This document shows positions 11,770-21,741 of a DNA stretch of 56,819 bases, piece after piece. Under the pieces are notes generated by a model, which was not told where the DNA came from, made no database searches, and was given only the letters and a program-made list of their open reading frames with translations. Made by a program: the position numbers and the translations under genes. The stretch spans positions 16,794-73,612 of the forward strand of contig CAZXPY010000002.1 of assembly GCA_964643435.1 (NCBI GenBank), in the 5' to 3' direction. Position 1 is the first letter of the stretch. The number at the start of each line of letters is the position of its first letter. This DNA is from an uncultured Gammaproteobacteria bacterium (lineage in GTDB: Bacteria > Patescibacteriota > Microgenomatia > Woykebacterales > RBG-16-39-9b).

Positions 11770-11830
11770 ACCCGAGGAGTGGAAAATTAGTCTTTAAAGG
11801 TAATCTCAATCCCATAACCTATAATACCAG

Positions 11831-11841
11831 AGGTTGAACCT
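11831..11841. repeat. REP-like palindrome downstream of the RAYT-type gene
   Basis: AGGTT-G-AACCT; identical 11-mer at 12447-12457. Confidence 0.65.
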
Positions 11842-11844
11842 AGA

Positions 11845-12438
11845 TTACTCTAAGGTATATGATCTTAGTTCAGGTCCAGGATATTCTTCCTTGGTTAAAC
11901 CGGTCTTTACGAATTCCTCATAATCCTTTTGTGAATTCTTTTTTGAAAAATATCCCAATATAAACTTGGTTTCAACAAATTCTCTATGCTGCTCACCAAC
12001 ATAATCTAAATAGCTACTCCAAGTATAATTTCCCACTGTTTTACCTAAGCCAGCTTTTACTGGATTTAAGTGTATATAGCGACTTAATTGTATCAAATAT
12101 TCGTCTTTATCAACTAAAATTGAATGGAACCTTCCTTGGAAAAGATGTCCGCTCCGCTTGTACTTTAAATTGAAATACATAGTACAGCTTGTGTTTAAGG
12201 CCTGCATAAATTTTGAAATTGGGACATCAGTATTTTGCCTTAATAATAAGTGGACATGGTTTGGCATGAGTACAAAGCAAAGAATAGTAACATTATATTT
12301 TTCTGAATATTCTTCAAGTTTCAATAAAAACCTTTTTCTATCAGAATCGTTAAAGAAAACTTTCTGTTGGTTGTTACCACGCGTGATTATATGGTAATAA
12401 TTTCCATTCGCAAAATTTCTTATAGTTAATTTCCCCAT
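11845..12438 (-). mobile_element. REP-associated (RAYT-type) / IS200-like Y1 HUH tyrosine transposase
   Basis: YYHIITRGNN, MPNHVHLL (HUH), GHLFQGRF, YIHLNPVKAGL, Y.WSSY. Confidence 0.9.
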
Positions 12439-12446
12439 AGTATTCC

Positions 12447-12457
12447 AGGTTGAACCT
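12447..12457. repeat. REP-like palindrome upstream of the RAYT-type gene
   Basis: CC-AGGTTGAACCT-CGG. Confidence 0.65.
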
Positions 12458-12529
12458 CGGTAAATATATTATATTACGAATAATAAAATAAAGAAGGCGG
12501 AAAGAACGACTTTCCGCCAAGAGGAAAGA

Positions 12530-12841
12530 TTACCTACCACTCCAATTAGAATAAATAACCCGCGAATCTCGAAAGATACTTTTTAATAGAGATGTTTTTC
12601 TGGTTTCTGCGATTTCTAATCGCGCATCAATACTTAACTCTTCCGCTAAAGTATTGAACTCTTCTACCTCAGTAAAAGAGAAGTCTTCAAGGTCAGCTCT
12701 AAACTTATTATAGAGTGACATGATGGCACAGCACTTTTGAAAAACTCGGTTTCTCTCGTGAGGAGGTAACCCCTCTTCAGCCAATTTTTCGACCAAAGCA
12801 GTAAGGACTTGGTTCTCCAGTTCTTCGTGTTTACTTAACAC
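12530..12841 (-). CDS. Hypothetical protein
   Basis: 103-aa ORF with SD (GGAGGG) and upstream TTGACT promoter-like site; no motif recognised. Confidence 0.6.
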   Translation of the reverse strand: MLSKHEELENQVLTALVEKLAEEGLPPHERNRVFQKCCAIMSLYNKFRADLEDFSFTEVEEFNTLAEELSIDARLEIAETRKTSLLKSIFRDSRVIYSNWSGR

Positions 12842-12901
12842 CTTCCCCTCCTTTCTCGAATTTATTATATAACCATATAAAAATTAGTCAAACAAATTCC
12901 C

Positions 12902-14496: not shown

Positions 14497-15048
14497 CCTC
14501 TCAACGTACTCGCCATTTCTCGTATCAATTTTAATTTTATCGCCAGTTTTTATAAAGAGCGGCACGGATATTTGCATTCCGTTAGAAAGGGTTGCGCTTT
14601 TGTAAACGTTGGAAACGCTGTCTCCCTTAACTCCGGGTCCGGTTTCGTTAACCGTCAATTCCATAAGTCTTGGTAATTCTAAACTAAGTGCTTCTTTATC
14701 AAAAAACAAAATTTCGTACTCTTCTTCTTCTTTTAGAAATTTTGCCGCTTCCCCTATTTGGTTTTTGTTCAAACTAAACTGCTCCCAACTCCCTGTATCG
14801 GTAAAGTTAAAAGAGGCTTCGTCTTTCCAAAGAAACTTAACTTTCTTTTTTTCAAGGTGGGCTTCGTTAACCCTTGCGCCACTTATAAAACTTTTTTCGG
14901 TTATTGCGCATGAGCGTAAATTTTTTACCTTCAGTTTAATATTGGCACTTCCCCGCCCCATTTTTAGGTGTTCGTAATTTAAAACTTCGAAGATATCGTC
15001 TTTTTCTTCGAAAAATTTTCCCGCCCTAAGTTCAGTTATGTTTACCAT
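14473..15048 (-). CDS. efp: Elongation factor P
   Basis: HLKMGRGSA loop, TGPGVKGDSV, VPLFIKTGD.IKIDTR.GEYVER. Confidence 0.96.
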   Translation of the reverse strand: MVNITELRAGKFFEEKDDIFEVLNYEHLKMGRGSANIKLKVKNLRSCAITEKSFISGARVNEAHLEKKKVKFLWKDEASFNFTDTGSWEQFSLNKNQIGEAAKFLKEEEEYEILFFDKEALSLELPRLMELTVNETGPGVKGDSVSNVYKSATLSNGMQISVPLFIKTGDKIKIDTRNGEYVERSTFKQKK

Positions 15049-15062
15049 ATACGAAAATCTTA

Positions 15063-16019
15063 TCAGTTTTTCGGCTTTGACGGCAAATTCTTTGATTTCC
15101 GAAACAAAAGAGCCAAAAGAGCTATGCGTATATACAACCCGTTCCGAGCTTGTCGAAAATATGCGGCACGCTTGTCGGAATCAACCTCTCGGCTGATTTC
15201 ATTTATTCTCGGTAACGGATGCATGATAACCGCTTGCTTGTTGAGTTTGTTTAATAATTTTTTATCAAGGACAAATGAATCCTTCATTCGTTCGTAGAGT
15301 TGTGGAGATGAAAACCTTTCTTTTTGAATCCTCGTCATGTACAGAATATCAACTTTCGGAAGTAGGTTTTCCAAATTATCTAATTCAGAAAATTTTATCT
15401 TGTGCGTCTTTAAGAATTGTCTGTATTTTTCTGGTAACCTTAATTCTCTCGGTGAAACAAAAAATACTTCGATATTATGACTAAATGAAAGGAGATAAAT
15501 AAGCGAGTGGATCGTCCTACCATAAAGCAGATCGCCGACCATCCCGATTTTGAAACCATCAATATGGCCAAATTCTTTTCTGATTGTATACAAATCAAGG
15601 AGTGCTTGGGTTGGGTGTTCGCCAGCTCCATCACCCGCATTGATGATTGGAACCAAAGAAACTTTAGCCGCTCTTTCAGCCGCACCGGCTTCCGGATGAC
15701 GTAGGACGATCACATCAGAATATCCGGAAATGATCCTAATACTGTCTTCCAACGTCTCGCCTTTGATAGCCGAGGAAAAGTGTCCAGCGCTTTCGGTAGA
15801 AATTACTTGGCCGCCGAGTTTCAGCATCGCCGATTCGAAAGAAAACCGAGTGCGGGTACTCGGTTCATAGAAAACACAAGAGAGAATTTTACTCTGTAAA
15901 ATCTTTGGGATTTTATCTTTTCGATCGGCTTTTTCGAAACTATCTGCAACCTTAAAAATCTCTTCAAGTACTTTCTTATTCAAAAATTGTTTGGTGCTCA
16001 AAATATGTTCAAAATTCAT
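15063..16019 (-). CDS. pyrB: Aspartate carbamoyltransferase catalytic subunit
   Basis: FYEPSTRTRFSFE, HPTQALLD, MHPLPR; start at MNFEHIL (16019). Confidence 0.96.
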   Translation of the reverse strand: MNFEHILSTKQFLNKKVLEEIFKVADSFEKADRKDKIPKILQSKILSCVFYEPSTRTRFSFESAMLKLGGQVISTESAGHFSSAIKGETLEDSIRIISGYSDVIVLRHPEAGAAERAAKVSLVPIINAGDGAGEHPTQALLDLYTIRKEFGHIDGFKIGMVGDLLYGRTIHSLIYLLSFSHNIEVFFVSPRELRLPEKYRQFLKTHKIKFSELDNLENLLPKVDILYMTRIQKERFSSPQLYERMKDSFVLDKKLLNKLNKQAVIMHPLPRINEISREVDSDKRAAYFRQARNGLYIRIALLALLFRKSKNLPSKPKN

Positions 16020-16034
16020 ATTGCAAATTACTAA

Positions 16035-16062
16035 GTGGTAGGACGTCAAACGTCCCTACCAC
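16035..16062. repeat. GT-N3-AC family hairpin just 3' of the tRNA locus
   Basis: Minus strand GTGGTAGG-G-ACGT-TTG-ACGT-CCTACCAC. Confidence 0.6.
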
Positions 16063-16070
16063 GCTCAGCG

Positions 16071-16284
16071 TGGTGGGCAAGGTGGGAGTCGAACCCACAA
16101 GGTGTTGCCATCACCCCGTTAATGGTGCCGGCGGTCGGAGTCGAACCGACATGAGCTTGCACTCACAGGTTTTTGAGACCTGCGTGTCTACCATTCCACC
16201 ACACCGGCACATTTTGCGGGGCTGCGTCTACCGGTTCCGCCGCGTCAAACGCGGCTGTAACGTTCGACGTTCTGCCACTTGCCC
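16071..16284 (-). tRNA. Interrupted outer Leu-type tRNA gene (anticodon not resolvable; split tRNA or pseudogene)
   Basis: Perfect acceptor GGGCAAG/CTTGCCC + A + CCA; T arm GTGGG-TTCGACT-CCCAC; GGTAGACGC D-arm 3' half; stem GCCCC/GGGGT; long variable arm. Carries a 35-nt insert in the D arm and a whole tRNA in the anticodon loop. Confidence 0.8.
16123..16208 (-). tRNA. tRNA-Leu (CAA), intact, CCA encoded
   Basis: GCCGGTGTGGTGGAATGGTAGACACG-CAGGT-CTCAAAA-ACCTG-long variable arm-GTCGG-TTCGACT-CCGAC-CGCCGGC-ACCA. Confidence 0.97.
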
Positions 16285-16297
16285 CTGTGTACAACCG

Positions 16298-16326
16298 ATT
16301 ATATAATTTTCAGTCTGTTCTTTCAA
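16298..16326 (-). promoter_or_regulatory. Promoter upstream of the outer tRNA 5' end
   Basis: TTGAAA-17-TATAAT ending 14 nt before position 16284. Confidence 0.8.
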
Positions 16327-16353
16327 TGAATTTTTGATGAGGGATTAGCTTTT

Positions 16354-16378
16354 AGGGTCAGACCCTCAGGTTAAACTT
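16354..16378. repeat. Tandem REP-like palindromes
   Basis: AGGGT-CAG-ACCCT followed by AGGT-TAA-ACTT. Confidence 0.55.
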
Positions 16379-16428
16379 TTTATTTCTAACTTATTACTTG
16401 TTACTCGTTACGTAATAACTTTACTTGT

Positions 16429-17772
16429 TCACTTGGAGCGCATTTTTTCGACGCCGTAGAATTTACGCCTCTCGCCTTTAAAGCGCAGATCAATTTCTCC
16501 CAACGGGCCGTTGCGGTGTTTGGCGATCAGCAACTTTATATCTTCGAAGTTCTCCTGATCTTCCCGATACAAAAACATCACTACATCCGCGTCCTGTTCA
16601 ATTGCACCACTCTCCCGCAGATCCGCAAGTTGGGGAATTTTCGCAGTTCTTGCTTCCACGGCTCGGGAAAGCTGCGATATTGCCAAAACCGGAATTTTAA
16701 GCTCTCTTGCCAAATTTTTTAGGGCTTGGGAGATTTCGCTCACCTCTTGGACTCGGTTTTCCAAATTTCGGCCCCGGACAAGTTGCAAATAATCAACGAT
16801 CAAAAGCTTTAAGTTGTGTTCCATCTGCAATCTTCTTGCCTTTGTTCTCATCTCCATTATCGAAATCCCCGGAGTATCATCAATAAAAAGCGGGGCCTCG
16901 GCCAACTCTCCCATTGCTTCAGAAAGTTTCGAGAAATCATCATCATCCAAATTCCCGGTGGTAATTTTCCAAGCATCAACATCCGATTCACAAGCAAGTA
17001 ATAAATCAATAAGTTGCTCTTTACTCATTTCCACTGAAAAAATCCCCACTGGTATTTTTTCGCGTACGGCAACGTGCTGGGCAATATTGCTGGCAAGAGT
17101 GGTTTTTCCTAAGGAAGGCCGGGCTGCCAAAATTATTAAGTTTGAATCCTGCAGGCCAGAGAGTTTCTTATCAATATCCGAAAAACCAGTCGGTACTCCA
17201 CGTAAGGCGCCGCCCTTTTTTTGCAGTTCGTCAAGCCGATCAAAACTTTCCGCCAAAGCTTCTCTAATTGGGATAAAGTTACTGCGCAAATGTTCTTGCG
17301 AGATTCCAAATAAATCCTTCTCGACGTCTTCTAAAAGAGTAGGAACTTCTTTATCCTCTTCAAACGCTTCTTGGGTTATTTTCGCGGCCGTACTAATCAG
17401 CGCCCTTTTTATTGCCTTATCTTTAACAATTTGAGCGTAATGTTCAACATGAGCGCTGGTCGGAACGCTATTTACCAAGGAAGTGAGGTAACTACTACCG
17501 CCAACAAAATCATACTTTTCCACTCTTTTTAACTCATCAGTAACGGTAACCAAATCTGCCGGCAATCTTTTTTCATAAAGAATAAGAATCGCGCGGTATA
17601 TTTCGGCGTGGATTTCGGTATAAAAATGTTCTGGTTTGAGGCTCTCCGCCACTTTTACAATCGCGTCTTTATCGATTAAAAGTGCCCCAAGAACGCTGGC
17701 TTCTGCCTCTAAATTTTGGGGAGGGAGTCTTAGATCGCTTTTTACTTTTTCTTTTATCTGCGTTTGGGCCAT
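16429..17772 (-). CDS. dnaB: Replicative DNA helicase
   Basis: PPQNLEAE, AARPSLGKT Walker A, IVDYLQL, DLRESGAIEQDAD, KHRNG. Confidence 0.98.
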   Translation of the reverse strand: MAQTQIKEKVKSDLRLPPQNLEAEASVLGALLIDKDAIVKVAESLKPEHFYTEIHAEIYRAILILYEKRLPADLVTVTDELKRVEKYDFVGGSSYLTSLVNSVPTSAHVEHYAQIVKDKAIKRALISTAAKITQEAFEEDKEVPTLLEDVEKDLFGISQEHLRSNFIPIREALAESFDRLDELQKKGGALRGVPTGFSDIDKKLSGLQDSNLIILAARPSLGKTTLASNIAQHVAVREKIPVGIFSVEMSKEQLIDLLLACESDVDAWKITTGNLDDDDFSKLSEAMGELAEAPLFIDDTPGISIMEMRTKARRLQMEHNLKLLIVDYLQLVRGRNLENRVQEVSEISQALKNLARELKIPVLAISQLSRAVEARTAKIPQLADLRESGAIEQDADVVMFLYREDQENFEDIKLLIAKHRNGPLGEIDLRFKGERRKFYGVEKMRSK

Positions 17773-21706: not shown

Positions 21707-21741
21707 GGCACGTTGAACGTGCCAGTCGCGTTTGACGCGAC
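21707..21741. repeat. REP-like doublet (GT-N3-AC family)
   Basis: GGCACGT-TGA-ACGTGCC A GTCGCGT-TTG-ACGCGAC. Confidence 0.7.

What the first reader, a model, noticed from the sequence alone, without database searches (positions are those of the whole stretch)
16071..16284. A tRNA gene nested inside the anticodon loop of another tRNA gene
Seen: an outer Leu-type tRNA (perfect 7-bp acceptor GGGCAAG/CTTGCCC, A73, CCA, canonical T arm, long variable arm) has its anticodon stem GCCCC/GGGGT split. The insert is GCAAAATGT + complete tRNA-Leu(CAA) (16123-16208) + TTAAC. A strong promoter lies just upstream of the outer 5' end, so both would be one transcript. Established: RNase P and 3' processing release tRNAs from precursors. 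Inference: excising the inner tRNA leaves two outer halves that could stay paired or be ligated, or the outer gene is a recent casualty with intact stems. I know of no bacterial tRNA-in-tRNA arrangement, but cannot search for one.
Basis: partly seen in the sequence, partly recalled or inferred. Interest (0 to 1): 0.85.

Follow-up and report, generated by a model that had tools for sequence, protein, structure and literature searches.

The report
Leucine tRNA gene nested in relic
A working leucine tRNA gene sits inside the broken remains of an older leucine tRNA gene in an uncultured Woykebacteria-like (CPR) bacterium. Related genomes show the same kind of gene-in-gene replacement again and again at this spot, so the outer gene is most likely a recently disabled relic, not a second working tRNA.

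Summary
On the minus strand, a complete tRNA-Leu(CAA) (16123-16208) lies between two halves of a second tRNA-Leu-like gene (16071-16284), and one strong promoter drives both.

The outer gene is also a CAA-type tRNA, not UAA or UAG.

- **Closest relative (L231/L083):** it carries that outer gene intact at the same position after dnaB, which gives an "empty site" for comparison.
- **Same composite elsewhere:** two distant relatives (L311, L236) carry it too. Between them the outer parts differ at 19/69 positions, about the neutral rate, while the inner tRNA differs at 2/86.
- **Private lesions:** every copy of the outer gene has its own damage.
- **Recurrence:** roughly one in five related dnaB-efp loci carries nested or fragmentary tRNA-Leu(CAA) relics, in different type combinations.

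My best explanation (confidence 0.6) is serial replacement of the tRNA-Leu(CAA) gene. The old halves now serve only as leader and trailer, and the relic has collected REP-like hairpins; a RAYT transposase gene lies 3.6 kb away.

Two readings remain open: a functional scaffold role for the outer halves, or a self-spreading tRNA cassette. I found no evidence for splicing or ligation.

The parts
16298..16326 (-). Sigma-70-type promoter TTGAAA-17 nt-TATAAT that drives the whole unit. It is the resident promoter of the outer (old) tRNA gene.
   Evidence: 11/12 matches. It is homologous to the promoter of the intact gene in L231 (36/55 identical).
16269..16284 (-). Outer tRNA, first 5' piece: acceptor 5' strand GGGCAAG, U8 G9, D-stem 5' strand GCA (G12->A) and GAAC of the D loop.
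   Evidence: 15/16 identical to the intact A-type tRNA-Leu(CAA) of L231.
16234..16268 (-). 35-nt double hairpin inserted in the outer D loop (AACGT-cga-ACGTT, then CCGCG-tttga-CGCGG), flanked by the direct repeat GAAC. It is absent from the intact gene in L231.
   Evidence: It belongs to a 3-copy hairpin family in the window with core CGTTTGACG. No hairpin copies occur in 1.35 Mb of relatives' loci.
16223..16233 (-). Outer tRNA, second 5' piece: D-loop 3' part CGGTAGA, D-stem 3' strand CGC, and nucleotide 26 (A).
   Evidence: 9/11 identical to L231.
16209..16222 (-). 5' arm of the bracketing helix GCCCC(G), followed by CAAAATGT, the immediate 5' leader of the inner tRNA.
   Evidence: inverted repeat I2. 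Homologous to L311 (GCCCCGTAAAAT) and L236 (GTCCTGTAAAATTT). Not homologous to TAGGT of intact A-type genes.
16123..16208 (-). Inner, intact tRNA-Leu(CAA) of the 'B type' (acceptor GCCGGTG/CGCCGGC, encoded CCA). This is the functional gene.
   Evidence: ARAGORN. Rfam tRNA 57.9 bits. 83-85 of 86 nt identical to the inner genes of L311 and L236.
16113..16122 (-). TTAAC trailer of the inner tRNA and the 3' arm (C)GGGGT of the bracketing helix.
16071..16112 (-). Outer tRNA 3' piece: variable arm GATGGCAACACCTT (G->A), T arm GTGGG-TTCGACT-CCCAC, acceptor 3' strand CTTGCCC, A73 and CCA.
   Evidence: (43/44 identical to the L231 intact gene).
16036..16070 (-). Second 35-nt double hairpin (CCACGC-tga-GCGTGG, then GGGACG-tttga-CGTCC), inserted directly after the outer CCA and flanked by the repeat ACCA. 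It is absent in L231.
16021..16035 (-). Native trailer CTTAGTAATTTGCAA, matching the sequence that directly follows the intact tRNA in L231 (CTTAGGAATTTGCAA). It marks the right-hand edge of the old gene's own context.
   Evidence: 14/15 identical, read directly.
21707..21741 (+). Third copy of the same double-hairpin family (GGCACG-ttgaa-CGTGCC a GTCGCG-tttga-CGCGAC), in an unrelated intergenic place.
11845..12438 (-). REP-associated tyrosine transposase (RAYT) gene, 3.6 kb from the tRNA locus. It is a candidate mobiliser of the hairpin elements; the link is inferred, not shown.
   Evidence: NCBIfam NF047646 85.8 bits (cut-off 80). Pfam Y1_Tnp 8e-20. The segment 11774-12898 has no counterpart in L231.

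Best explanation
The outer 'tRNA' is the recently disabled resident tRNA-Leu(CAA) gene of this locus. I call it the A type; it is the gene that normally follows dnaB in these Woykebacteria/WWE3-like CPR bacteria.

A roughly 110-nt segment replaced its anticodon arm. That segment carries a complete tRNA-Leu(CAA) of another sequence type (B type), bracketed by a short GC-rich inverted repeat. Because both genes read the same codon, the newcomer took over the function and now uses the old gene's promoter.

The locus would then work as follows.
- One transcript starts a few bases before the old gene's 5' end.
- RNase P cuts at G1 of the inner tRNA, and ordinary 3' trimming stops at its encoded CCA.
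- The two old halves are released as leader and trailer, with no decoding role.
- The relic has since picked up lineage-specific REP-like double hairpins (in its D loop and after its CCA) and point lesions.

The composite interior most likely entered this lineage by recombination into the native A-type gene after the split from L231. The highly conserved tRNA halves could have served as homology arms.

What is shown: the architecture, the homology, the empty site, the decay in relatives and the recurrence. What is inferred: the single transcript, the processing steps and the route of entry.
For: 1. Identity of the outer gene. It aligns to intact A-type tRNA-Leu(CAA) genes (L083/L231, L053, L229, L242), differing at 4 of 69 tRNA-like positions. 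Its variable arm is of the CAA type.

2. Empty site. L231 (=L083) has DnaB 99% identical in protein, flanks 88% identical in DNA, and a homologous promoter and trailer. It has the A-type gene intact at the same place, with no B-type gene and no hairpins.

3. Same composite in L311 and L236.
- Between them the outer tRNA-like parts differ at 19/69 positions. The adjacent promoter region is 76% identical.
- The inner tRNA differs at 2/86 (Fisher p = 5e-6).
- In L236 the acceptor stem has 5/7 pairs and the T stem has only G.U-weakened pairs.

4. Private lesions in every outer copy, at positions invariant in intact genes.
- Window: G12A, variable-arm G->A and the D-loop insertion.
- L311: C56->T in the T loop, a 1-nt deletion in the D stem and G13C.
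- L236: C11A and a decayed 3' half.

5. Recurrence with other type combinations and variable breakpoints.
- Nested: L304/L305 (insert between nt 32 and 33; the outer is otherwise perfect and is called tRNA-Leu(CAA) once the insert is removed), L321/L322, L239, L254.
- 5' fragments only: L223-228, L229/L092 (three layers), L244, L261, L038, L094.
- 3' fragments only: L303, L279, L079.
- About 15 of 60 distinct syntenic loci are affected.

6. Detection. The outer gene is not recognised as a tRNA by ARAGORN or Rfam unless the D-loop insertion is deleted by hand.

7. Promoter. There is one strong promoter and no internal one.
Against: - In the window and in L311 the acceptor stem (7/7), T stem (5/5) and bracketing helix (5/5) are all intact, although the two genomes are distant (DnaB about 77%).
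- Polarised against intact genes, the 3' half changed 12 times in L236 but only once in L311 (two-sided binomial p about 0.003 by my arithmetic). Decay is therefore uneven, and some constraint in L311 cannot be excluded.
- The window's outer parts are far more conserved against L231 than the promoter region is (4/69 versus 19/55 differences; p = 5e-5). I explain this by a recent event, but ongoing selection would give the same figure.
- Most relic 5' halves carry a hairpin insertion at the same D-loop site. The L321 (B-type outer) and L236 (A-type outer) insertions are about 74% identical. Simple neutral decay does not predict that regularity.
- No RNA data exist.
- The rest of the genome (tRNA set, processing enzymes) was not available.
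Confidence: 0.6

Rival explanations
1. Functional scaffold. The outer halves are kept because they fold into a tRNA-like 'top half' (acceptor stem plus T arm plus ACCA) that encloses the inner tRNA. RNase P and 3'-end enzymes would recognise this fold and define or protect the ends of the precursor, or order its processing. This resembles the way a processing stem encloses rRNA, or the way engineered tRNA scaffolds carry a cargo RNA in place of the anticodon arm.
For: - Perfect acceptor, T arm and bracketing helix in both the window and L311 despite about 77% DnaB identity.
- The 3' half changed once in L311 but 12 times in L236.
- The predicted minimum-energy fold keeps the outer acceptor helix closed around a cloverleaf-like inner tRNA (z = -2.75).
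- The inner genes of L321 (10 bp), L304 and L311 are bracketed by GC-rich helices exactly at the junctions.
- RNase P and CCA-related enzymes need only the acceptor/T-arm half of a tRNA. This is established knowledge and was not tested here.
Against: - L236, L239 and L321 have lost the T arm or acceptor pairing yet keep an intact inner tRNA.
- Many relatives have only a 5' or only a 3' fragment, and most have none; their tRNA sits 8-13 nt after the promoter.
- Each outer copy carries private lesions.
- Leader-trailer inverted repeats of 6 bp or more are common by chance around tRNAs (15/60 versus 40/220).
Confidence: 0.17
2. Self-spreading tRNA cassette. The insert is a small mobile unit, a tRNA-Leu(CAA) gene held in the loop of a GC-rich hairpin (ends CCCCG...CGGGG). 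It invades the anticodon region of resident tRNA-Leu(CAA) genes and replaces their function. It would be moved either by a single-strand (HUH/RAYT-type) transposase or by homologous recombination through the conserved halves of the gene it interrupts. On this reading the outer gene is its target site, not merely a bystander.
For: - Nested inserts with GC-rich terminal inverted repeats occur in three unrelated type combinations: window/L311 GCCCCG..CGGGGT, L321 CCCCGAATCT..AGATTCGGGG, and L304 CCTGCC..GGCAGG.
- L303 has the same hairpin as L304, at the same 32/33 site, but without a tRNA.
- The composite is shared by the window and L311/L236 but absent from the window's closest relative, and the window's flanks are native.
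- A RAYT gene lies in the window, and a homologue sits between dnaB and the tRNA in L306.
- Homologous hairpin doublets occupy the same D-loop site in different tRNA types.
Against: - Breakpoints in the outer gene vary (about nt 26, 31, 32/33, 38 and 43), and several have adjacent deletions. That is not what a site-specific element predicts.
- No target-site duplication was seen.
- No cassette copy was seen outside a tRNA-Leu gene.
- The inverted repeats are short and could arise by chance.
- RAYT genes are near only 2 of about 90 loci.
- The hairpins flanking the RAYT gene (AGGTTCAACCT) differ from the TTTGA family.
Confidence: 0.2
3. Split or intron-containing tRNA. The inner tRNA is excised and the outer halves are joined (for example by RtcB), or stay paired, giving a second functional leucine tRNA.
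For: - Outer acceptor, T arm, A73 and CCA are intact, and the two halves are perfectly complementary.
- With the D-loop insertion removed by hand, ARAGORN accepts the literal join as tRNA-Leu-like.
Against: - Joining after RNase P and 3' processing gives a 14-nt loop (GCAAAAUGUUUAAC) with no U33-anticodon-R37 register.
- The D loop carries 35 extra nucleotides, and the D stem has a mismatch.
- No group I intron or any other Rfam family matches even at E <= 10.
- No bulge-helix-bulge geometry is visible at the junctions by inspection.
- The outer decays in L236.
- A second CAA gene would be redundant.
Confidence: 0.02
4. Assembly artefact: a chimeric join of two tRNA-Leu loci.
For: The Logan contig L001 breaks inside the inner tRNA, and the EF-P contigs break inside pyrB. 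As a result, no second assembly of this species spans the 3' junction.
Against: - L001 reproduces the 5' junction exactly.
- L311 and L236, from other studies and other organisms, carry both junctions with homologous junction sequences.
Confidence: 0.01

Closest known systems
Partial tRNA copies left at tRNA-gene integration sites (attL/attR remnants of integrase-borne islands and prophages)
   Same: tRNA fragments lie next to an intact tRNA gene at a variable-content hot spot. The dnaB-efp interval carries different small genes in different relatives (pyrB here; an AsnC-type regulator, an acyltransferase or unannotated small ORFs elsewhere). 3' fragments downstream of an intact tRNA are very common: more than 120 hits in viral contigs, and L079 shows a tandem series.
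   Different: Here the fragments are not duplicates of the working gene; the acceptor stems differ (D1 repeat 76%). A 5' half is present. The two halves belong to each other and enclose the new gene with only 9 and 5 nt of spacer. No integrase was found among the seven ORFs between 10.2 and 18.5 kb that I scanned against Pfam.
Disrupted tRNA genes of archaea: intron-containing, split and permuted tRNA genes (reviewed in PMC4090602)
   Same: A tRNA gene is interrupted in or next to the anticodon loop, and a helix forms at the junction. The inserted RNA can itself be a functional small RNA.
   Different: Those genes are repaired by a splicing endonuclease acting on a bulge-helix-bulge motif, followed by a ligase, and the product is a normal tRNA. 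Here there is no such motif, the joined product would not be a normal tRNA, the host is a bacterium, and relatives show the outer gene decaying.
Group I introns in the anticodon loop of bacterial tRNA-Leu(UAA) (my own knowledge)
   Same: A bacterial leucine tRNA gene is interrupted in the anticodon region.
   Different: The insert is 100 nt and is a tRNA, not a ribozyme of 200 nt or more. No Rfam intron match was found, and the isoacceptor is CAA.
REP/REPIN elements and their RAYT transposases
   Same: Short GC-rich palindromic doublets are dispersed in intergenic DNA. A RAYT gene lies in the same window. The copies are lineage-specific.
   Different: Only three copies were seen in 57 kb. The stems vary while the loop (TTTGA) is conserved. 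The RAYT gene is not flanked by these hairpins. Insertion inside a former tRNA gene's D loop, at the same site in several lineages, is not a described REP property.
Engineered tRNA scaffolds, in which a cargo RNA replaces the anticodon arm of a tRNA to stabilise it (my own knowledge)
   Same: The topology is identical: acceptor, T and D parts of a tRNA, with a helix in place of the anticodon stem carrying a folded RNA.
   Different: Those scaffolds are designed and keep an intact D arm. Here the D arm is broken, and natural selection for the scaffold has not been demonstrated.

Membership tests
Canonical bacterial tRNA-Leu gene (the outer gene) | Recognised by tRNA covariance or heuristic models as one continuous cloverleaf | tested here: not met
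   ARAGORN finds only the inner gene. Rfam tRNA matches only 16126-16208. With the inner gene deleted, ARAGORN finds nothing, or only a spurious intron model.
Canonical bacterial tRNA-Leu gene (the outer gene) | 7-bp acceptor stem, A73, T arm with TTCGA loop, long variable arm | tested here: met
   43/44 identical to an intact gene. One A.C mismatch in the variable-arm stem.
Canonical bacterial tRNA-Leu gene (the outer gene) | Intact D arm (3-bp stem, 8-11-nt loop with G18 G19) | tested here: not met
   A 35-nt insertion lies in the loop, and G12->A gives an A.C mismatch. ARAGORN accepts the gene only after the insertion is removed by hand.
Canonical bacterial tRNA-Leu gene (the outer gene) | 5-bp anticodon stem closing a 7-nt loop with U33 and R37 | tested here: not met
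   The helix GCCCC(G)/(C)GGGGT encloses 100 nt. After removal of the inner tRNA the loop would be 14 nt.
Canonical bacterial tRNA-Leu gene (the inner gene) | Complete cloverleaf scored above the curated threshold, CAA anticodon, A73, conserved among relatives | tested here: met
   57.9 bits against a gathering score of 29. ARAGORN. 1-3 differences in 86 nt against L236 and L311.
Group I intron in a tRNA anticodon loop | Ribozyme core detectable by the Rfam Intron_gpI model; length of 200 nt or more | tested here: not met
   No match in 15000-17500 even at E <= 10. The insert is 100 nt and is a tRNA.
Archaeal-type spliced or split tRNA | Bulge-helix-bulge motif at both exon-intron junctions | tested here: not met
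   By inspection, the junction helix is 6 bp followed by mismatches. There are no two 3-nt bulges spaced by 4 bp.
Archaeal-type spliced or split tRNA | Splicing endonuclease and RtcB-type ligase encoded in the genome | not testable with these tools
   Only 56.8 kb of the genome is available. Absence from the window would say nothing.
Integrase-generated att-site remnant | The fragment duplicates the 3' end of the adjacent intact tRNA, with an integrase gene next to it | tested here: not met
   The outer 3' half differs from the inner 3' half (76% over 34 nt). A matching 5' half is present. No integrase was found among the seven ORFs between 10.2 and 18.5 kb that I scanned against Pfam.
REP/RAYT system (the 35-nt hairpin doublets) | RAYT (REP-associated tyrosine transposase) gene in the genome | tested here: met
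   NF047646 at 85.8 bits, above the cut-off of 80.
REP/RAYT system (the 35-nt hairpin doublets) | Many near-identical palindromic copies, including copies flanking the RAYT gene | tested here: inconclusive
   Three copies in 57 kb with a shared loop and core but different stems. The RAYT gene is flanked by AGGTTCAACCT instead. The whole genome was not available.
tmRNA | G3.U70 in the acceptor stem, tag reading frame, pseudoknots | tested here: not met
   Position 3-70 is G-C. ARAGORN finds no tmRNA. The Rfam tmRNA match covers only 17 nt of the T arm, at 15 bits against a threshold of 47.

The most novel reading that the evidence does not exclude
The nested gene is one instance of a self-propagating tRNA-Leu(CAA) cassette: a hairpin-bracketed tRNA gene that enters the anticodon region of the resident tRNA-Leu(CAA) gene, supplies the lost function, and takes over its promoter. 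It would then spread between CPR lineages. Spread could occur through a RAYT-type single-strand transposase, or because the very conserved halves of the interrupted gene act as ready-made homology arms after DNA uptake. On this reading, the D-loop hairpin doublets at one fixed site in several tRNA-Leu types would be a second, tRNA-targeted element.
Probability: 0.2. Interest if true: 0.85.

Novelty: new variant of a known kind. Interest (0 to 1): 0.6.

Why it matters
Disrupted tRNA genes are known from archaea and organelles, and tRNA fragments are known at integration sites. I found no description of a complete bacterial tRNA gene sitting inside another tRNA gene (three full-text searches).

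Here the arrangement is not a one-off. The tRNA-Leu(CAA) gene next to dnaB in this CPR group is replaced again and again, and it leaves nested or layered relics. That turnover offers a way to study three things:
- how an essential-looking tRNA gene is exchanged without loss of function;
- how fast a released tRNA sequence decays;
- whether small hairpin elements target tRNA loops.

It also matters for annotation. Standard tRNA finders see only the inner gene, and an intron-tolerant search gives spurious calls.

If the halves turn out to be functional, or the cassette mobile, this would be a new kind of tRNA biology in bacteria.

Tried and rejected
- **ARAGORN in intron mode on the outer gene.** It gives artefactual models: an odd Leu with a 42-nt "intron", a Cys, and a "stop" tRNA. 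I rejected these as over-fitting.
- **Two-T-loop pattern GGTTCGANTCC-N25-55-GGTTCGANTCC in viral contigs.** The search saturated at 120 hits. A tRNA plus a 3' fragment is too common for this pattern to be a useful probe, so I did not run it on metagenomes.
- **Genome-collection scan with the outer 3' 23-mer.** It gave 98 ordinary tRNA-Leu genes (58 UAA, 30 CAA, 9 UAG, 1 GAG) and no copy of the window's composite, so the species is not among the GTDB representatives. The scan was useful only for typing the outer gene and for L038, L079 and L094.
- **Exact-protein look-ups.** PyrB is not on record. The EF-P contigs stop inside pyrB. The 3' junction therefore has no second assembly in this species.
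- **L312 and L313.** These contigs end before the tRNA.
- **Rfam at E <= 10 around the locus and at gathering threshold on six related loci.** Only the tRNA family matched.
- **The idea that CAAAA in the 5' flank is the old anticodon loop.** This is possible, but the bracketing stem is unlike any Leu(CAA) anticodon stem in 55 relatives, so the stem may belong to the insert. The question is left open.
- **Inverted repeats around the inner gene as proof of a transposon.** A control shows that repeats of 6 bp or more are frequent around tRNAs by chance.
- **tmRNA and integrase att-site readings.** Both were tested and not met (see the membership test).
Full report
**1. What is in the sequence**

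The feature lies on the minus strand. ARAGORN finds one tRNA in the whole 56.8-kb window, tRNA-Leu(CAA) at 16123-16208. Rfam's tRNA model scores it at 57.9 bits.

Reading the minus strand gives the following order:
- a promoter TTGAAA-17-TATAAT (16326-16298; 11/12 matches);
- GGGCAAG TG GCA GAAC (16284-16269);
- a 35-nt double hairpin (16268-16234);
- CGGTAGA CGC A (16233-16223);
- GCCCC G CAAAATGT (16222-16209);
- the inner tRNA;
- TTAAC GGGGT (16122-16113);
- GATGGCAACACCTT GTGGG TTCGACT CCCAC CTTGCCC A CCA (16112-16071);
- a second 35-nt double hairpin (16070-16036);
- CTTAGTAATTTGCAA, and then the pyrB start codon.

The acceptor strands pair 7/7 (I9). No promoter-like or terminator-like site separates the outer 5' end from the inner gene.

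Standard tools do not recognise the outer gene as a tRNA, even with the inner gene deleted. ARAGORN accepts it only if the D-loop insertion is also removed by hand.

**2. Organism and context**

The flanking genes are dnaB (16429-17772), a carbamoyltransferase (pyrB-like, 15063-16019), efp, a 145-aa protein and an M24 peptidase. The best named DnaB relatives are Candidatus Woykebacteria and WWE3 MAGs at 74-79% identity.

The order Lactamase_B_3 - dnaB - tRNA-Leu(CAA) - efp is conserved across about 90 related loci, down to 61% DnaB identity. The tRNA occurs in either orientation, and various small genes are sometimes inserted.

**3. What the outer gene is**

A scan of species-representative genomes with the outer 3' 23-mer returned 98 ordinary tRNA-Leu genes. 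The closest to the outer pieces are tRNA-Leu(CAA) genes with acceptor GGGCAAG and variable arm TGGTGGCAACACCTT. I call this the A type. The inner gene (acceptor GCCGGTG) is a different allele type, which I call B. Both genes are therefore CAA isoacceptors, and no UAA or UAG gene has been sacrificed.

**4. The empty site**

The closest relative found is metagenome contig L231, identical in this region to the WWE3 bacterium RIFCSPLOWO2_01_FULL_39_13 (L083).
- Its DnaB is 99% identical in protein, and 4.8 kb and 2.2 kb of flanks are 88-89% identical in DNA.
- It carries an intact A-type tRNA-Leu(CAA) 125 nt after dnaB, behind a homologous promoter (36/55 identical) and followed by CTTAGGAATTTGCAA.

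Against that gene, the window shows these changes:
- G12->A, one D-loop change, G26->A and a variable-arm G->A, which is 4 differences in 69 tRNA-like positions;
- the two 35-nt hairpin insertions;
- replacement of the anticodon arm TAGGT-CTCAAAA-ACCTA by GCCCC-GCAAAATGT-[B-type tRNA]-TTAAC-GGGGT.

The pyrB-like gene is also absent from that position in L231.

The promoter region differs at 19/55 positions while the outer tRNA-like parts differ at only 4/69 (p = 5e-5). The outer gene was therefore either functional until recently or is still constrained.

**5. The same composite elsewhere, and its rate of change**

Two contigs from other studies carry the same composite: L311 (ENA ERZ27267425) and L236 (SDBT01089613.1). 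Their DnaB proteins are about 77% identical to the window's and 95.6% identical to each other. Each has an A-type outer gene with a D-loop double hairpin, a homologous junction (G[CT]CC[CT]G[CT]AAAAT...), a B-type inner gene, then [TG]TAAC and the outer 3' half.

This excludes misassembly, as does the Logan contig L001 with the identical 5' junction.

| Comparison, L311 vs L236 | Result |
|---|---|
| Inner tRNA | 2/86 differences |
| Outer tRNA-like parts | 19/69 differences |
| Adjacent promoter region | 76% identical |
| Outer vs inner, Fisher test | p = 5e-6 |

In L236 the acceptor pairs 5/7, the T stem survives only as G.U pairs, and most changes are G:C to A:T. L311 keeps all helices, but it has C56->T in the T loop and a deletion in the D stem. 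Every outer copy therefore has its own lesions at positions that are invariant in intact A-type genes. This is the signature of a gene released from selection.

One caveat applies. The changes in the 3' half are very unevenly split, 12 in L236 and 1 in L311.

**6. How the window got it**

The composite-specific interior is shared with the distant L311/L236 lineage: G12A, A26, the GCCCC/GGGGT helix, the junctions and the B-type gene. The window's promoter and trailer, in contrast, are those of its close relative L231.

The simplest reading is that the interior entered the native A-type gene by recombination after the split from L231. This is an inference. The 16-nt and 44-nt tRNA segments are almost invariant across CPR lineages, so they could have served as homology arms. 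That would also explain why the outer halves still look fresh.

**7. It is a recurrent process**

Among about 60 distinct syntenic loci, about 15 carry recognisable tRNA-Leu relics next to the working tRNA-Leu(CAA).

Nested cases with other type combinations:
- L304/L305. The outer GCCAGAG type is perfect and is interrupted exactly between nt 32 and 33 by CCTGCCCGACTTT + tRNA + ATCGAAGGCAGGCGGG. ARAGORN calls the outer gene tRNA-Leu(CAA) once the insert is removed, and L306 has the intact counterpart.
- L321/L322. A B-type outer encloses a GGCGCGG-type inner gene bracketed by a perfect 10-bp inverted repeat; the outer 3' half is truncated.
- L239 and L254.

Cases with 5' fragments only: L223-228, L244, L261, L038, L094 and L229/L092. 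L229 has three layers: an internally deleted A relic, a B-type 5' fragment and an intact A gene.

Cases with 3' fragments only: L303, L279 and L079.

Breakpoints vary (about nt 26, 31, 32/33, 38 and 43). The working alleles at this one locus are unusually diverse and look mosaic. This is serial gene replacement with slow clean-up of the remains.

**8. The hairpins**

The two 35-nt insertions and a third copy at 21707-21741 form a family: a hairpin followed by a second hairpin with loop TTTGA and core CGTTTGACG. About 0.07 such hairpins are expected by chance. No hairpin copies occur in 1.35 Mb of relatives' loci.

The window also encodes a REP-associated tyrosine transposase at 11845-12438, in a segment missing from L231. 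A homologue sits between dnaB and the tRNA in L306. A link between transposase and hairpins is plausible but has not been shown.

Most relic 5' halves in other lineages also carry hairpin insertions at the same D-loop site, after GGAA and before NGGTAKAC. The insertions in L321 (B-type outer) and L236 (A-type outer) are about 74% identical. Either a hairpin element targets this site, or something is being selected there. I cannot tell which.

**9. How it most likely works**

Inferred from established tRNA maturation, not measured here:
- One transcript starts a few bases upstream of 16284.
- RNase P cleaves before G16208.
- The 3' end is trimmed to the encoded CCA at 16123.
- The 76-nt leader and the trailer, which are the old halves, are discarded.

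Joining the halves would give a 14-nt loop and a broken D arm, so a second decoding tRNA is very unlikely.

A role for the still-intact acceptor/T-arm "top half" as a processing or stabilising scaffold remains possible. The evidence for it is the intact helices in the window and L311 and a predicted fold that keeps the outer helix closed. It is not required, because L236, L239 and L321 and most relatives do without it.

**10. Comparison with what is known, and verdict**

The arrangement resembles four known things: att-site tRNA remnants, archaeal disrupted tRNA genes (PMC4090602), group I introns in tRNA-Leu(UAA), and engineered tRNA scaffolds. It fails the defining tests of each (see the membership table). 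Three full-text searches found no described bacterial tRNA-in-tRNA gene.

I rate it a new variant of a known kind: a tRNA gene relic created by replacement. The arrangement is real and recurrent, and it was previously unnoticed because tRNA finders see only the inner gene.

Limits of this analysis: only 56.8 kb of the genome was available, there are no reads and no RNA data, the 3' junction was not seen in a second assembly of the same species, and only three copies of this particular composite exist for rate estimates.

Noticed in passing
window 11774-12898 (RAYT gene 11845-12438, minus strand; 103-aa ORF 12530-12841): A REP-associated tyrosine transposase gene (NF047646, 85.8 bits) and a small unknown ORF form a segment with no counterpart in the closest relative L231. 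The gene is flanked on both sides by the small palindrome AGGTTCAACCT.
   Followed up: partly
window 21707-21741 (+): A third copy of the double-hairpin family (GGCACG-ttgaa-CGTGCC a GTCGCG-tttga-CGCGAC) lies in an unrelated intergenic region. The family has conserved loops but different stems.
   Followed up: partly
window 15094-16020: The carbamoyltransferase (pyrB-like) gene between the tRNA and efp is absent from this position in all relatives examined. L231 has a different small ORF there, and L236 and L311 have efp directly after the tRNA. The dnaB-efp interval is a variable-content hot spot.
   Followed up: partly
L268-L276, L282, L285, L291-L297, L301 (tRNA-Leu(CAA) genes): Many working alleles have a T stem GTGGG/CCCTC with a U.U mismatch at positions 50-64. 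It looks as if the 5' and 3' strands came from different allele types. This suggests recombination inside the T loop, which is the classic crossover site of some integrases.
   Followed up: no
L229 4900-5146 (= L092): Three layers lie behind one another: an internally deleted A-type relic (GGGCAATTGG|TGCCCACC), a second promoter, a B-type 5' fragment with a 65-nt D-loop insertion, and then an intact A-type tRNA-Leu(CAA). This is the reciprocal of the window's arrangement.
   Followed up: partly
L079 4849-5130 (Candidatus Curtissbacteria JAUSJC010000005.1): An intact tRNA-Leu(CAA) is followed by two successive tRNA-Leu 3' fragments (variable arm, T arm and acceptor 3' strand). Each is preceded by the hairpin CTTTTTGCTTTAGCAAAAA(A)CG, like stacked integration scars.
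   Followed up: no
L094 about 480-660 (contig labelled 'uncultured Candidatus Saccharibacteria'): A tRNA-Leu(UAG) is enclosed by GCCGGCG TG GTAGAA... upstream and ...CGCCGGC A downstream. This is a perfect 7-bp acceptor-like pair from a different tRNA-Leu type, so nesting may not be limited to CAA genes or to this family.
   Followed up: no
L050, L077, L101 (Berkelbacteria and Saccharibacteria), directly after tRNA-Leu(CAA): A hairpin that pairs with the tRNA's own 3' end (CCACCA-CGCTTAGCG-TGGTG), followed by a second GC-rich hairpin. It closely resembles the window's post-CCA doublet (CCACCA-CGCTGAGCG-TGGT...). This trailer type is therefore shared across CPR phyla.
   Followed up: no
L306 4923-5402: A homologue of the window's RAYT (44% identity over 161 aa) lies between dnaB and the tRNA-Leu(CAA) gene. 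That gene is the intact counterpart of the outer gene of L304.
   Followed up: no
L303 and L304, downstream and around the tRNA: The same GC-rich hairpin (CCTGCCCG...GCAGGCGGG) sits between nt 32 and 33 of homologous old tRNA-Leu genes. In L304 its loop holds a complete tRNA; in L303 it holds only 22 nt. Related palindromes (CTGCC[CT]GCC..GGCAGG) interrupt the D arm of relics in L239 and L261.
   Followed up: partly
window 16070-16306 (+): A 78-aa open reading frame runs antisense across both tRNA genes. It is almost certainly spurious, but a gene caller could annotate it.
   Followed up: no
L304 4521-4605 versus L305: The inner tRNA of L304 has a C.A mismatch at positions 31-39 of the anticodon stem (CAGGC/ACCTG). 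The otherwise identical L305 has T-A. This is either a sequencing error or a slightly damaged working copy.
   Followed up: no
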